A DNA stretch of 32,884 bases, from contig JAYNIA010000027.1 of the NCBI GenBank assembly GCA_038108555.1, positions 1 through 32,884 of the forward strand, given 5' to 3'. Within the stretch, counting starts at the first letter, position 1. Every line of letters starts with the position of its first letter. This DNA is from Nitrospinota bacterium (GTDB lineage: Bacteria > Nitrospinota > Nitrospinia > Nitrospinales > VA-1). This document shows positions 6,001 through 12,000 of the stretch, piece after piece. Made by a program: the position numbers.

Positions 6001-9000
6001 TGCTCCTCAAAGAAGTTAAAGTGGGGAGCCAACTAAAGCAGGGGCAGAAAATCGGCGAAGTCCGCGACATATATAGTGGAAAGCGGTTGGAAGAACTCAC
6101 CGCCCCGGAAGACGGAATGTTGGTCACCCTCCGACAATACCCGATTGTTTATGAAAGAGAACCAATCGCTATCATCCTATCCGGCAAAGACAACTGGCAA
6201 AAACTCGGTCACGCCATCAAGTCGATGGTGAAGGGTTAAAAATCTGGATAGGTAAAACCCTCCAACGCTAAAAATCCTTTTCTAAAAAATTTTTAATGTT
6301 GTTTTTATAGCGGGTTTGTTTTCAGGGTCTTATATTTATTTATAAACAAAGACATTTTAGGAAAACGGACATGCGAAAGAAAAAACGACAAAGCATTGAA
6401 GAGGCCTGGCGGGCCACGTTCTCCACCTCAGAGAGGACCAAGAAGCAGGCCGATATATCGTGGATCGTCTGGCTGTTCGAAAACCCGAGAAGTCCCCTGG
6501 CCCTGCACGGTGCCGCCAGCCTTTATACCCACGATCACATCCACCTGCTGCTGGACCGTTGTATCGACAAGGAAGATGAGGCCTTCGTCATCGGATTCTC
6601 CATGGGAAACGACACAAAAACCAACTGGCTGGATGTGTGGCTTTTTAAATTTGTCTCCCGTTTTTTGTATCCAGAAGACTACCGCTTCGATTCCCGACAT
6701 CTAAAAATTTATGATATGGGATTCCAGTTCGGCCGCACCCGCAAATTCAAAAACATCACCTCCATCGATTTTTCCAAACTTGATCTCAAAATGGACCTGT
6801 CGCGTGTCCGAAAAATATTTGATATCGATGAAAATGAACTGGAAGAGTTTGATAAGGAAATAGCGGTAGTAACCTTTGGTATCGGAAAGGAAAAACAACC
6901 CCCTCTGTCCCCCTTGTCAGGGGGAATCTAAAAGCTCTTCTAGAAGCTTTTTTGGTTTGGTTCGTCTTAGGAGCCACGACCATTTGGCCGCCGGGCCTCC
7001 CGGCTAGACGTGCATGAGGAAAAGGATCATACCACCCAGGCACAGCCCCGTACCCAGCAAGGTCATTAGGGTTCCGCGCAGGGATTTGGATTTGGCTCCA
7101 TCCGATTTTTTTTTGCCGTAACGGTTTTTGGCATCTTTTTCAAACTCCTCTTCTTTTCTTTCTATGTTGCGGCAGATACTGAGCACCACTCCCCCCAACC
7201 CAAACAAAACGACCGCCCAAATCTGTTCCACCACCAGCATATCCATGAGTCACTCCAATCCTTTCACTTACTGTTTCTTATCGGAACAAAAACCGCTTAC
7301 TTTTGTGAGAGCCGCCAGTATAGCAATTAACGCTTAATAAACAAATAGTTCTAAGCCACAAAAGGTTGATGCTCCGTAACGAATGGGATAAAATTAAGGG
7401 CCAAAGTGTTGCAATGCCCCTGTTTCCTCATGAGCGCAGCGAAAACCATAAAAAACAATATATTAATCCAGAACGACTCCGGCTACCGGTATTCGATAGA
7501 ACCCTTTTTATTGGCAGATTTTGCCAGGCTGCTGCCGGGTCAGGAAGTGCTGGACATTGGTACCGGTTGCGGCATCATTCCGCTTCTCATGCTCCACCGG
7601 GAACCGGAACTCAGGATAACCGGAATTGAAATCCAGGAATCGGCTGCTGCAAATGCCAGGGAAAATGCTTCGGGAAATCAGGAGAAAATTAAAATCATCC
7701 AGGGTGATTTTCTTGAAACGGATTTTAACCAGAACCAGTTTGATTTAATCGTGTCAAATCCGCCTTACCGCAAAATCAATTCTGGCCGCATTAATCCGGA
7801 TGAAGGAAAAGCCATTGCCCGCCATGAGTTGAAACTGAGTCTGCCCACCCTGCTTGACCATGCCAGACCGTGCTTGAAACGAAACGGTCATATCGCACTG
7901 GCCTACCCCCCCCTGCGGTTGCAGGAAACGTTACGCGAGTTGGAAAAAAGGGAACTGTTCCCTGCGCGGATTCGTTTCATTCATGGGAACAGGGATGCAG
8001 AGGCTAAAATTTTTCTGGTCGATGCCATCAAAGAAAAGAAAAGCGATTTAATAGTCGATTCTCCACTCTATGTTTATAATAAGGACGGAAGCTATTCTCA
8101 GGAGATGCAGGAGATCTATGATTCCTTTAATTGTGCTGACAGGCCCGACGACCTCGGGGAAAAGTGAAACCGCACTTGCATTGGCCCGGCAACTGAACAC
8201 AGAAATTATCAGCGCCGATTCCATGCAGGTGTACAAATACTTCGATATCGGTACGGCCAAACCCTCCGCAAAAGCACGGCAAAGCATTCCCCATCACCTG
8301 ATCGACATCCTGGAACCGGATGAGGAATTCAACGCTTTCGACTTTAAAACACAGGCTCTGGAAAAAATTAATGACCTGATGGGTCAGAATAAAGTCCCCA
8401 TTGTAGTGGGAGGAACCGCGCTCTACCTCAAAGTATTAATTCAGGACTACGACTGTGCAGTGGAAATATCTGAAGAAACCAAAAAAAATATCCAGCAGGA
8501 TATTCTCGAACAGGGGGTCGAGCAGGTTTATAAAAAACTGCAGGCGATTGATCCGGTTTTTGCTGAAAAAATATCTGAAACAGATTCCGTCCGAATCGAA
8601 CGGGCGTTGGGGGTTTACCTTGATACAGAAAAACCCTTTTCAGAATTTCACAAGGAAGATTCCGCATCTGAAATACAATTTCCCATTTATACGTTCATCC
8701 TGGACTGGGATCGGTCAGAACTCTATTCAAAAATCGACCAGCGTGTGGATGATATGATTGAGGCGGGACTTGAAAATGAAGTGAAAATCATACTGGATCG
8801 TGGGTATTCAGCCGATTTAAAACCCCTAAAAAGCATCGGCTATGCTCAAATGACCCGCTACCATCAGGGTGAATTGACTTTGGACAGAGCCATCTACGAA
8901 ATAAAAAGGGAAACGCGTCACTACGCTAAGCGGCAATTGACCTGGTTTAGAAAAATGCATGAAGCACAAACCCTTCAAACCGGCCGACAAGACACCCCGG

Positions 9001-12000
9001 AAACCCTCTGCCAAAAATTACTTTCGCGCTTGCCCAATATAGCGGCTTGTCTACTTACACTTTTTCTGGCATTGAGTGTCGGCTCAAATTTGGAAGCGAA
9101 GGATACGGCGGAAAAATTTGAAAAAGCAAAAGGTTTTTTCTCTAAAAAGGAATGGGCCAAAGCCAAAAACCAGTTCCTCGCTATCCAAAACACGGCCCCG
9201 GATTTTCAGGAAAGTAAACGTTCGAGGTTTCTGCTCAGCCTCATACATCTTGAAAACAAAAAATACGACAAAGCGGCAGAACTTTTAGACCCTCTTGTTA
9301 AAAAGTACCCGGAGGTAGAAGATTATATTTTATTGAATCTTGCCAAAGCGGAATCCCTCAACAAAAAGCATGAAAAAGCCAAAGAGCATGTTGAAAAGCT
9401 CCTGAAAAAATTCCCGGAAACCCAACTCTATGCCGAGGCAAGAATTATTCTCGCAGACACCCATATTCAAACGGGCACTAACGAAAAAGCGATCGAAGTA
9501 ATCACAGAAACCATTCAAACGATAAAAACCTCTTTTTACCAAAGGCAATTTAAATCCTATCTGCCCGAACTCATTTTTAAACTAGCCACCCGCCAGGAAA
9601 AATCCGGGAATAAAAAAGAAGCATATTTAAATTTCCGGAAGCTCCACTACAAATACCCGAACCATGAATTGACTCCGGATGCAGAGGCTGAAATAAAAAA
9701 ATTGTTAAAAGCTACGGATACAAAGGAAGTCCCTTTAACCCTGAGGGAGCATACCCATAGGATTGAGGAATTGTTTAAGGGGGTGAGGTACAAAGAAATC
9801 ATTTCTGAAATTGGTAAAATCAAAAAAACAAACAATCCCATGCCGGGAAGATTTTATTTTTTCCTGTCGAATGCCCACCGCGGATTGCGCGACCGAAGAA
9901 AAGCAAACGTTGCCCTGCAGGAATTTTCAAAACTTTATCCAGAACACGCCCAAATTCAAAAGGCCAAATTCAATATCGGTCGCAACCTGTGGAATCTTGG
10001 CAAACCCATGGCAGGCGCCAAGTACTTTAAAGAAGTTTCCGAGGACTCTTCATCCGAACGAGCCATCAGGGCCTTATTTTTTCTTGGGAAAATTTACGAA
10101 GAACAAAAGAAATACCCCGAAGCGTTGAAAACCTATCAATCCGCATTAAAAAAATACCCTGAAAATTTTTACGGGCAATGGGCCGGATGGAGATTGGGAT
10201 GGGTGAATTATATTGACGGCAAATTTGACAAAGCTTTTGAACGGTTTCAGGATGTTGCCAAACGATTTCCTGATGGATCTTTTATAGAGTACAACCTGTA
10301 TTGGAGCGCAAAATCCGCTGAGAAAATGGGCAACAAGGAAGATGCCCGGAAAATTTTTACCGAGGTTGCCAGCCTCTATCCCTACACCTTTCATGGAATT
10401 CGCGCCAAGGAAAAGATGTTGTCGGAGGGTGTCAGTTTTCCCGAAAATAATTCGGAAAACTCTTCACCAAATAAGCAAATCAAACTGGATCGTGCATTGA
10501 CTCCACGGGAAAAATTTCATCATATCCGGGCCCTGGAGTTATCCGCCCTTGGCCTGAACAATGAAGCACGAAGTGAGATACATCAACTTGAAAAATCCAT
10601 TCGAAAAACTCTCACCGGGGTGTTGTGGCTTTCAAATCTTTATCACCAGGCCGGGGGTTATCCTGAATCGCTGCGGTTATTGCAATTGTATAAAGACTTT
10701 GCCACCAAGTCAGGAGAACGTACCCTGTCTCCGCGTTTCTGGAAATATTTTTTCCCACTTGCTTACAGTGAGGTGGTTGCAAAAAACGCCAAGTACCGGG
10801 AAGTCGACCCGTATTTCGTGAATGGAATCATCCGCCAGGAAAGCCTTTTCGACAGTCACGCCCTGTCCCCTGCCGGTGCTCGCGGACTGATGCAGATCAT
10901 GCCGGCAACCGGCAAAAGGCTTTATCCCAAAACAAAACTTAAAAAACCTTTTGAAGCGGATGTTCTTTTCGAACCCGACTTAAATATCAGGCTGGGAGTC
11001 AAATACGTGAGTCAGTTGAACAAACGTTTTGGCAAAAACGGAACCCATATTTTAATTTCCTACAATGCCGGTCCCCATATTCTAAAAAAATGGCTGAAAC
11101 GGTTTGGACATTTAAATGACCTGGATGTATTTATCGAATCCATTCCCTACCCGGAAACCCGGCGCTATGTAAAACATGTTTTGAGAAACCGCGGAATTTA
11201 CAAGGCCCTGTATTCTCCATCTTAAAGACGGCATTATTCATCTTTTAAACTCCCTTCTTTAGTACTAGAATGACCCCATGAAATCCAAAGTCCACATAAA
11301 GAAAATTGAAAACTACGAGCTGGAGCAGGTAGAGGATTTTGTTCGGGATTCCGTGACCGACCTGAGTGAAAACCAACCTCTTTTTTCCAGCGGACAAAAG
11401 GTTCTGCTGAAGCCCAATCTTCTCAGGGGGTTTAGCCCCGACCATTGCGTGACCACTCACCCGGTGGTGGTGGAAGCCATGTGCCGGGTGTTGAAAGATT
11501 TTTCAGTCGGCCAGATCACAATCAGCGACAGCCCGGCTCTCGGAAGTTTGGAAGCCGTTGCCAGAAAAGCGGGTTATGATCCCTTAAAGAAAAAATATGG
11601 TGTAGAAATTGTTCCCCTGACCGATCCGGTTCCATTTGAAAATGAAGAGGGCGTTCCGCATTTAAAAATTGCAGGTTGCCTGAAAGAGTTTGACCGTATC
11701 GTAAATCTACCCAAGGTAAAATCTCATTGCCAAATGAAGATGACCCTTGCCATCAAAAATTTGTTTGGTCTGGTAATAGGCAAACGAAAGCCGGTTCTCC
11801 ACTGCCTGGTCAAAAACGATAAAATAAAATTCGGAAAAATGTTGATCGACATCGCTCGTCACGTGAACCCCTGCTTTAACCTGGCAGATGGAATTGAAGC
11901 CATGCAGGGCCAGGGGCCGATCAATGGCAGTCCTTACCCTCTTGGAGTGCTTCTGGCATCCACCGATATGACGGCACTCGACCGTATTGCAGCAGAGATC

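What a model noticed while it worked through the whole genome (the two positions that open the first line are those of the whole stretch)
8118..11225. The only MiaA is a membrane-anchored fusion with a periplasmic TPR-lytic transglycosylase
The genome's single tRNA dimethylallyltransferase gene (miaA) runs without a stop into a hydrophobic segment, about 550 residues of TPR repeats and a C-terminal SLT (Slt70-like lytic murein transglycosylase) domain, giving one 1035-aa protein; the same one-frame arrangement is kept in all four families of Nitrospinales searched. I read it as a bitopic inner-membrane protein that ties a cytoplasmic tRNA-i6A37 modification enzyme to a periplasmic cell-wall-cleaving enzyme, a physical link between translation/isoprenoid status and peptidoglycan remodelling. 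No such MiaA fusion is described; if both halves are active it is a new kind of cross-envelope coupling.
Evidence so far: Pfam: IPPT 37-279 (E 5e-83, whole model), TPR 405-755, SLT 887-1001 (E 1e-26); TIGR00174 MiaA equivalog, hmm cover 0.99; 44.6% id to Clostridium MiaA over 1-279; only IPPT row in pfam.tsv. One Kyte-Doolittle segment >1.6 at residues 301-323, just after the MiaA fold. First 500 aa (spanning the joint) match in 25 of 26 relatives searched (12 of 12 >=90% complete; 7 of 7 genera, families f1-f4), 22 as one stretch across the joint with no stop, inside open frames of 990-1119 aa. 172 database proteins match residues 150-650; the 120 listed carry PF01715 and nearly all PF01464, lengths ~1020-1060, every named one from Nitrospinae/Nitrospinota, labelled only 'MiaA'. 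Paper search MiaA + 'lytic tran [...]
(Added by a program. Inside this text positions count along the whole contig: contig position 1 is position 1 of the stretch shown here. "Call 12" and the like, gene names such as g00115 and contig names such as C1 are that model's own, and its searches are not shown. The text may have been shortened before it was handed on; [...] marks where a part breaks off. The agent that wrote the report below was given it as the finding of a first reader that could run no searches.)

Follow-up and report, generated by a model that had tools for sequence, protein, structure and literature searches.

The report
MiaA–Slt precursor with internal signal peptide
In a whole order of marine nitrite-oxidising bacteria, one gene encodes a tRNA-modifying enzyme and a cell-wall-cutting enzyme as a single chain, joined by what still looks like a cleavable export signal, so the cell probably cuts it into one inside protein and one outside protein rather than using it as a membrane-spanning sensor.

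Summary
The fusion is real. ORF 8118-11225 (1035 aa) holds the genome's only MiaA, a TPR superhelix and an Slt70-type catalytic domain, with catalytic residues kept in 71 of 71 relatives. Of 102 genomes of the order, 96 have a MiaA match: 94 read through the joint in one frame, 2 break at contig ends, none shows a stand-alone miaA. Sister orders keep miaA and slt as separate, often overlapping genes; the fused forms are one clade. The joint fits a retained signal peptidase I signal better than a permanent anchor: 13 uncharged columns, a Gly/Pro break, and an Ala-x-Ala-type site in 16 of 20 genera (shuffles: mean 7.8, max 15). No internal start is conserved. Best reading (about 0.6, cleavage not shown): a two-in-one precursor that LepB cuts into a free periplasmic Slt and a cytoplasm-side MiaA, perhaps freed by RseP. 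An independent MiaB-signal-TPR-SPOR fusion in Omnitrophota has the same layout (checked here). My searches found no paper on it; this scan noted the same fusion before on another genome (e1-2450942).

The parts
7406..8167 (+). Upstream TrmN/YfiC-like adenine-N6 methyltransferase (candidate tRNA m6A37 enzyme); its 3' end overlaps the miaA start by 50 bases
   Evidence: Best NCBIfam hit NF047853 TrmN 83.6 bits, below cut-off 350; homolog beside 69 of 71 fusion loci and 6 sister-order loci; overlap of 35-74 bases in 62 of 71
8118..11225 (+). Whole fused ORF, 1035 aa (P0001)
8118..9032 (+). MiaA tRNA dimethylallyltransferase domain, residues 1-305, cytoplasmic (P-loop Lys15 at 8160-8162, Asp34 at 8217-8219)
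   Evidence: (TM 0.87 to 2zm5_A)
9015..9038 (+). n-region equivalent: basic residue 300 (K/R in 68 of 71), end of last MiaA helix, conserved Pro306 (66 of 71)
9039..9077 (+). h-region, residues 308-320: 13 alignment columns with no charged residue in 71 sequences
9078..9098 (+). c-region, residues 321-327; predicted signal peptidase I cut after Ala327 (this protein has Leu at -3; a site after Ser323 is the alternative)
   Evidence: inferred, not shown
9099..10742 (+). TPR superhelix and linker of the Slt70-like protein, residues 328-875, periplasmic
   Evidence: NF047373 over 311-1033, below cut-off; TM 0.56 to 1qte
10776..11222 (+). SLT (GH23) catalytic domain; catalytic Glu908 at 10839-10841
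   Evidence: (E908 71 of 71)
11278..12234 (+). Downstream DUF362 gene, partly conserved neighbour
   Evidence: beside 47 of 71 fusion loci, 14 of 20 genera

Best explanation
A two-in-one precursor. Shown: one frame encodes MiaA, a signal-peptide-like segment and a TPR-Slt protein; it arose once at the base of the order from neighbouring, overlapping miaA and slt genes, with MiaA's last helix taking the place of the signal's n-region. Inferred: MiaA folds in the cytoplasm; the internal h-region enters the Sec translocon N-in/C-out; the Slt part is exported; signal peptidase LepB cuts after the Ala-x-Ala site (about residue 327), releasing an ordinary soluble periplasmic Slt70-like enzyme. MiaA stays on the cytoplasmic face on a 20-residue signal stub, either working there or freed by the intramembrane protease RseP. 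The fusion is most likely kept because it is hard to undo (slt lost its own start and ribosome site) and costs nothing once cut; its effect is fixed 1:1 synthesis, not signalling.
For: Joint columns: K/R300 68 of 71, P306 66 of 71, no charge in 308-320, G/P at 322 in 41 of 71, Ala at 325 in 34 and at 327 in 37, charges return at 326 and 328. Strict Ala-x-Ala-type site 2-9 residues after the core in 57 of 71 fusions, 12 of 15 signal-peptide controls (Skp, LolA, TolB) and 8 of 32 signal-anchor controls (PBP, ExbD, FtsQ, MreC) from five genomes of the order; best 17-residue hydropathy median 2.13, against 1.91-2.42 for the three signal-peptide families, 2.19 for 14 unfused Slt orthologs and 2.56-2.71 for three of four anchor families. 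One sequence per genus: 16 of 20 against shuffles mean 7.8, max 15 of 2000, background 18%. A cleavage-site matrix learned from 362 of the genome's own N-terminal hydrophobic proteins separates the controls (AUC 0.84) and gives fusions median 5.9 against 7.1 for signal peptides and -0.4 for anchors. The motif persists although the joint is only 22% identical between genera. Unfused orthologs carry N-terminal cleavable-type signals. LepB and RseP found in 5 of 5 genomes. RseP cuts signal remnants and type II segments that carry a large cytoplasmic HA-MBP tag (passages of PMC4597795, PMC10470546). Same layout in an unrelated MiaB-TPR-SPOR fusion: 9 of 13 such proteins show hydrophobic segment plus strict site.
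Against: No protein-level data; no SignalP-class predictor was available, and my scores are home-made. The matrix is crude (placed the cut at scattered positions, 9 of 15 true signal peptides and only 11 of 20 genera above the anchors' 90th percentile). This window's own protein lacks the strict motif (Leu at -3). Core length alone does not separate the classes (median 11 for fusions, 11-15 for anchors, 12 for signal peptides), and the 2 FtsQ anchors are as weakly hydrophobic (1.84) as the joint. Ala-rich sites after an anchor can be left uncut (RsiV, abstract of PMC4183432). Relatives are not independent samples.
Confidence: 0.62

Rival explanations
1. Permanent bitopic inner-membrane protein: the segment is an uncut signal anchor holding MiaA inside and Slt outside, possibly co-locating or coupling them.
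For: One hydrophobic segment between a cytoplasmic and a periplasmic enzyme; never split in 94 of 94 genomes where the joint can be read; weak anchors exist (FtsQ 1.84); small residues recur at 310 and 314 (Ala 49 and 36 of 71), which could be a helix-packing face.
Against: Short apolar stretch followed by a polar, Gly/Pro-rich c-region and a conserved Ala-x-Ala-type site; hydrophobicity has not risen above that of the unfused orthologs' signals (2.13 against 2.19); model gives a 10-residue helix (308-317) then coil, pLDDT under 50; no conserved sequence in the joint (22% identity) as a signalling helix might need.
Confidence: 0.17
2. Regulated cleavage: the precursor waits uncut in the membrane and is cut by LepB (then RseP) only on a cell-wall cue sensed by the TPR-Slt part, as for the anti-sigma factor RsiV, so wall state would set the level of free MiaA and free Slt.
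For: Precedent for signal-controlled signal peptidase cleavage (abstract of PMC4183432); both proteases present; the model places a helix (324-342) across the predicted site; a second tRNA-A37 enzyme, MiaB, is fused the same way to a peptidoglycan-binding TPR-SPOR protein in another phylum.
Against: No conserved masking element seen; the c-region has the highest dN/dS of the gene (0.35); MiaB is also fused to many unrelated domains (PhoH-like, cyclo-ligase, GNAT, acyltransferase and others among 120 listed), which suggests neighbour fusion rather than pathway logic.
Confidence: 0.08
3. Internal translation start: Slt is made from its own in-frame start just before the signal, and the long product is incidental.
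For: Met280 is ATG in 45 of 71 and GTG in 5; in one genus (g16, 5 of 5) an ATG at 296 follows an AGGA-type site with duplex energy -4.6 to -5.6 and would give a normal-length signal peptide.
Against: Position 280 is not a start codon in 21 of 71; 6 of 71 have no ATG, GTG or TTG anywhere in 269-311; best internal ribosome-site energies (median -2.2; 15 of 71 at or below -3.4) are no better than random windows of the same gene (median -2.4; 29%); Met280 lies inside the MiaA fold; MiaA would still have no stop.
Confidence: 0.1
4. Assembly or sequencing artefact, or one half is dead.
For: Most genomes are metagenome assemblies; one relative (G095, 59% complete) has a frame break inside MiaA.
Against: Full-length frame in 77 of 102 genomes, including single-contig ones; dN/dS 0.07-0.35 in all eight regions over 45 within-genus pairs; catalytic residues 71 of 71.
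Confidence: 0.01

Closest known systems
MiaA tRNA dimethylallyltransferase (E. coli 2ZM5/3FOZ, B. halodurans 3EXA; TIGR00174)
   Same: Whole fold with last strand and helix (TM 0.87 to 2zm5_A), P-loop, Asp34, KRQxTW motif; only copy in the genome; MiaB present as a normal stand-alone gene.
   Different: No stop after the last helix; made as the head of an exported protein; at least briefly membrane-tethered.
Slt70-type soluble lytic transglycosylases (E. coli 1QTE/1SLY, P. aeruginosa 5OHU, Neisseria LtgA; TPR-rich relatives such as NF047373 BB0259)
   Same: Superhelical domain plus C-terminal GH23 domain with catalytic Glu; unfused orthologs in sister orders about 30% identical.
   Different: Export signal is internal, behind a 305-residue enzyme; below the curated cut-offs of PRK11619 (114.9 against 536) and NF047373 (174.5 against 234).
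Bradyrhizobium japonicum FbcH cytochrome b/c1 precursor (recalled; paper not held)
   Same: One gene, two proteins, internal signal cut by signal peptidase (recalled).
   Different: There the head is a polytopic membrane protein and both products join one complex; here the head is a soluble cytoplasmic enzyme and the products have unrelated jobs.
Regulated intramembrane proteolysis of RsiV by signal peptidase and a site-2 protease (abstract of PMC4183432); RseP on RseA, FecR and signal remnants (passages)
   Same: N-in/C-out protein with a cytoplasmic head, a signal-peptidase site and an outside domain.
   Different: No ligand-gating shown here; the head is an enzyme to be kept, not an anti-sigma factor to be destroyed.
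MiaB-signal-TPR-SPOR fusion of Omnitrophota (lead from e1-1187666; checked)
   Same: tRNA A37 enzyme, then directly an h-region and Ala-x-Ala site, then a periplasmic TPR peptidoglycan-related protein.
   Different: Other enzyme, other partner, other phylum: independent origin. Not a published system as far as I searched (I ran no paper search on MiaB itself).

Membership tests
MiaA (TIGR00174) | Score above the equivalog cut-off over the whole model | tested here: met
   312.5 against 148.65 bits, profile 1-284 of 288
MiaA (TIGR00174) | P-loop Lys, catalytic Asp and C-terminal KRQxTW motif | tested here: met
   K15, D34, K271, Q273, T275, W276 in 71 of 71; G14 replaced in 12 of 71; Asp aligns with E. 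coli MiaA (its catalytic role is recalled)
MiaA (TIGR00174) | Stand-alone soluble protein of about 310 aa | tested here: not met
   Frame of 1017-1060 aa in 71 of 71
MiaA (TIGR00174) | Makes i6A37 on tRNA | not testable with these tools
   No assay
Slt70-like lytic transglycosylase (GH23, PF01464) | SLT domain with catalytic Glu and GLMQ, YNAG, ETR motifs | tested here: met
   E908, G923, M925, Q926, Y982-G985, E1013, T1014 in 71 of 71
Slt70-like lytic transglycosylase (GH23, PF01464) | N-terminal superhelical domain | tested here: met
   Helical repeats 324-769; 700 aligned columns, TM 0.56 to 1qte
Slt70-like lytic transglycosylase (GH23, PF01464) | Curated equivalog score (PRK11619 Slt70; NF047373 BB0259) | tested here: not met
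   114.9 against 536; 174.5 against 234: works like, not a member of either equivalog
Sec/signal peptidase I signal peptide | Basic n-region, short h-region, polar c-region with helix breaker | tested here: met
Sec/signal peptidase I signal peptide | Small residues at -3 and -1 | tested here: met
   Loose 67 of 71, strict 57 of 71; 16 of 20 genera against shuffle max 15; this window's copy meets only the loose rule
Sec/signal peptidase I signal peptide | At the N-terminus of the chain | tested here: not met
   Starts at residue about 300; no conserved internal start
Sec/signal peptidase I signal peptide | Cut by LepB in vivo | not testable with these tools
   No protein data; LepB gene present in 5 of 5 genomes
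Type II signal anchor (uncut) | Strongly hydrophobic span without a usable cleavage site | tested here: inconclusive
   Less hydrophobic than PBP, ExbD and MreC anchors and richer in the site, but within the range of FtsQ and not separable by core length
Lipoprotein or Tat signal | Lipobox Cys at the end of the h-region; twin-Arg motif | tested here: not met
   Lipobox-like text in 20 of 71, in the two genera where the Cys is residue 311 at the start of the h-region; Tat motif 0 of 71

The most novel reading that the evidence does not exclude
The precursor is cut in a regulated way, or stays uncut, so that the state of the cell wall sets how much MiaA is free and how much i6A37 tRNA modification occurs; the independent MiaA-Slt and MiaB-TPR-SPOR fusions would then be two solutions to the same link between A37 hypermodification and peptidoglycan remodelling.
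Probability: 0.12. Interest if true: 0.85.

Novelty: new variant of a known kind. Interest (0 to 1): 0.55.

Why it matters
Bacterial polyproteins split by signal peptidase are rarely described, and the one I recall (FbcH) joins two subunits of one membrane complex. Here a soluble cytoplasmic housekeeping enzyme serves as a 305-residue leader for a periplasmic wall enzyme, fixed across an entire order of marine nitrite oxidisers. It gives a natural test of whether Sec, LepB and RseP can routinely process a signal behind a folded enzyme, and it shows an annotation blind spot: the source names shown for these proteins say only MiaA, so the Slt is hidden, and predictors that read only the N-terminus would call it cytoplasmic. 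If cleavage were regulated, it would be a new route from the cell wall to translation.

Tried and rejected
RNA evidence: no RNA holder listed for 7400-12300, so no reads were laid. Promoter and terminator scan of 7000-12400 at chance level (7 against 6.6; 8 against 7.8). A label-free control set of single internal hydrophobic segments (230 proteins) was dropped: it was mostly buried segments of soluble proteins; labelled families replaced it (two OmpH matches under the cut-off, L153 and L154, and one ExbD match without a locus were left out). The 'TGA inside' flag for G049 is the final stop. P0094 (MiaA-TPR joined to an MnmE-like tail) looks like a single chimeric assembly. Two searches for long MiaA proteins listed only MiaA-TPR(-SLT) proteins among the best 120 of 289 and of 238; the unlisted ones were not seen, so other MiaA fusions are not excluded. 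Atlas: nearest clusters are this fusion, taxa Nitrospinota where known. Paper searches with no hit or no relevant listing; N. gracilis genome paper has 0 occurrences of miaA or transglycosylase in text and in its one supplement held; Pacific metaproteome paper 0 in 2 supplements held. Lipoprotein and Tat readings rejected. No complex prediction was sent: the halves sit on opposite sides of the membrane.
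Full report
OBSERVATION. The frame from ATG 8118 to the stop at 11223-11225 gives 1035 residues with no stop. 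Pfam finds IPPT at 37-279, many TPR models and SLT at 887-1001; NCBIfam gives MiaA TIGR00174 at 312.5 bits (cut-off 148.65) and, as best whole-length match to the rest, NF047373 over 311-1033 below its cut-off. It is the only IPPT match in the genome and one of four SLT matches. An AlphaFold2 model from 48 sequences (mean pLDDT 88) shows a complete MiaA fold to about residue 305, a low-confidence 308-325 stretch, and a helical superhelix with a C-terminal lysozyme-like domain; Foldseek matches E. coli MiaA (TM 0.87 by target) and Slt70 (TM 0.56), as does the sequence search of solved structures.

DISTRIBUTION AND ORIGIN. Of 120 genomes of the class, 102 belong to the window's order. By my count of the rows, 77 have a full-length one-frame match, 17 more read through the joint in one frame but are cut elsewhere, 2 end at contig ends before the joint, and 6 have no MiaA match. 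Fourteen short matches were fetched and all run to a contig end. No stand-alone miaA was seen in the order. In the 18 genomes of sister orders the MiaA frames listed are 310-362 aa with a stop; I examined 15 of the 18: miaA and slt are neighbours in 9 (the slt frame opens before the miaA stop in 7; a gap of 773 bases in one and about 60 in another), lie apart in 5, and for one only slt was fetched. The unfused Slt orthologs begin with their own hydrophobic signal. In FastTree trees of each half (32 fused sequences, up to two per genus, plus 11 and 10 unfused), the fused forms are one clade (split support 0.98 for MiaA, 1.0 for Slt), and 13 of 14 well-supported MiaA splits recur in the Slt tree. 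A phylum-wide search added no further class. This fits one fusion event from overlapping genes and vertical descent; the order of events is inferred, with an arbitrary root.

BOTH HALVES ARE UNDER SELECTION. In 71 full-length sequences (from 73 loci; one cut by a contig end and one frame-broken were left out) K15, D34 and the KRQxTW motif of MiaA and E908, GLMQ, YNAG and ET of Slt are kept. dN/dS over 45 within-genus pairs is 0.12 for MiaA, 0.07 for SLT, 0.12-0.17 for the TPR part and 0.28-0.35 for the joint (pairs are not independent, 30 of 45 from one genus).

THE JOINT. Identity between genera is 56% in each catalytic domain but 22% in 307-330. What is kept is the layout: K/R at 300 (68 of 71), Pro306 (66 of 71), thirteen columns without a charge (308-320), Gly/Pro at 322 (41), Ala at 325 (34) and 327 (37), charges at 326 and 328. 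This is the n/h/c layout of a signal peptidase I substrate (established knowledge). Against labelled controls from five genomes of the order, a strict Ala-x-Ala-type site is found in 57 of 71 fusions, 12 of 15 signal peptides, 8 of 32 signal anchors and 4 of 14 unfused Slt (9 of 14 by the loose rule); hydropathy is like that of signal peptides and unfused Slt, and below that of PBP, ExbD and MreC anchors but not of the two FtsQ. One per genus, 16 of 20 carry the site, against a shuffle mean of 7.8 and maximum of 15 in 2000. A matrix learned from the genome's own proteins agrees (AUC 0.84 on controls; fusion mean 4.67 against shuffles 1.88, sd 0.95, max 4.37 of 500) but is crude: only 11 of 20 genera and 9 of 15 true signals pass the anchors' 90th percentile. 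Against the reading: core length does not separate the classes, and this window's copy has Leu at -3.

INTERNAL START. Position 280 is ATG in 45, GTG in 5 and no start codon in 21 of 71; six sequences have no ATG, GTG or TTG in 269-311. Ribosome-site energies before internal candidates are no better than background. One genus (g16, 5 of 5) has a plausible ATG at 296 with an AGGA-type site and may use it; this is not order-wide.

MECHANISM. Shown: one chain, intact halves, signal-like joint, lepB and rseP present in 5 of 5 genomes tested. Inferred: export from the internal signal, LepB cut near 327/328, soluble periplasmic Slt, MiaA left on a stub. Passages of PMC4597795 and PMC10470546 state that E. 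coli RseP removes remnant signal peptides after their detachment from the mature protein, cleaves type II segments, and that an N-terminal HA-MBP tag has been used on signal peptides and has little effect on cleavage; so release of MiaA is feasible, not shown. I give constitutive cleavage 0.62, an uncut anchor 0.17, an internal start 0.10, regulated cleavage 0.08 (precedent RsiV, abstract only), artefact 0.01.

WHY FUSED. The upstream gene is a TrmN-like methyltransferase that overlaps the miaA start in most loci, so the region is a chain of overlapping genes, where one indel fuses neighbours. Undoing the fusion needs a new stop and a new start together, which can lock it in without benefit (inference). 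A lead from the scan's notes (e1-1187666) was checked: among 120 listed long MiaB proteins 13 carry TPR and SPOR domains, two named Omnitrophota; 10 of the 13 have a hydrophobic segment right after MiaB and 9 of these a strict site, while 3 showed no such segment in the range searched. So the design recurs. The same list shows MiaB joined to many unrelated domains, which argues for neighbour fusion and against a special tRNA-wall logic, though two A37 enzymes each joined to a peptidoglycan protein keeps that idea alive.

WHAT IS KNOWN. Searches for MiaA with lytic transglycosylase and fusion (2 papers, listings only, unrelated by title and abstract start) and with Nitrospinota terms (22 papers, 10 listed, none holding the taxon words) found no description; the N. 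gracilis genome paper does not mention miaA or transglycosylase in its text or held supplement. The library lacks most subscription journals, and bioRxiv supplements were closed, so a listing in a table cannot be excluded. The FbcH precedent is recalled; its paper was not held. The scan noted this same fusion on another genome (e1-2450942) and several other internal-signal fusions (TatC-LptD, LptF-LptD, NodB-LolA, RlmD-glycosidase), unchecked here.

VERDICT. Observation confirmed; interpretation partly supported. A new variant of a known but rarely described kind (a signal-peptidase-split precursor), unusual in that the leader is a soluble housekeeping enzyme and the trait is fixed in a whole order. 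Interest 0.55.

Noticed in passing
window 7406-8167: TrmN/YfiC-like methyltransferase overlaps the miaA start in most relatives and sits beside miaA in some sister orders too: two candidate tRNA A37 enzymes side by side.
   Followed up: partly
L074-L078 (genus g16), residue 296 of the fusion: In-frame ATG with an AGGA-type site in 5 of 5 members; could be a regained internal start for Slt in this genus.
   Followed up: partly
L037 and L038 (G047): Two full copies of the fusion on different contigs in one assembly (5% contamination); duplication or mixed bin.
   Followed up: no
L019 (G095): Frame break inside MiaA near residue 123-137 in a 59% complete genome; error or pseudogene.
   Followed up: no
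fusion residues 8-16: The Gly before the P-loop Lys is replaced (Lys in 9, Glu in 2) in 12 of 71 MiaA domains.
   Followed up: no
window 9039-9077: h-region is rich in Cys and small residues (Cys311 in 26 of 71; Ala310 49, Ala314 36).
   Followed up: no
L080-L085 (family f9): The unfused slt genes start inside the end of miaA and have long, repeat-like n-regions of variable length before the h-region.
   Followed up: partly
P0178, P0204, P0220, P0239 and others: MiaB-signal-TPR-SPOR fusions, and MiaB fused to PhoH-like, 5-formyl-THF cyclo-ligase, GNAT, YbaK, acyltransferase and other domains.
   Followed up: partly
window 6371-6931 and 14924-16159: Two ORFs (186 and 411 aa) with no Pfam match.
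   Followed up: no
window 4267-6239: Tandem pair of succinylglutamate desuccinylase/aspartoacylase-like genes behind a PAS kinase and an NtrC-like regulator.
   Followed up: no
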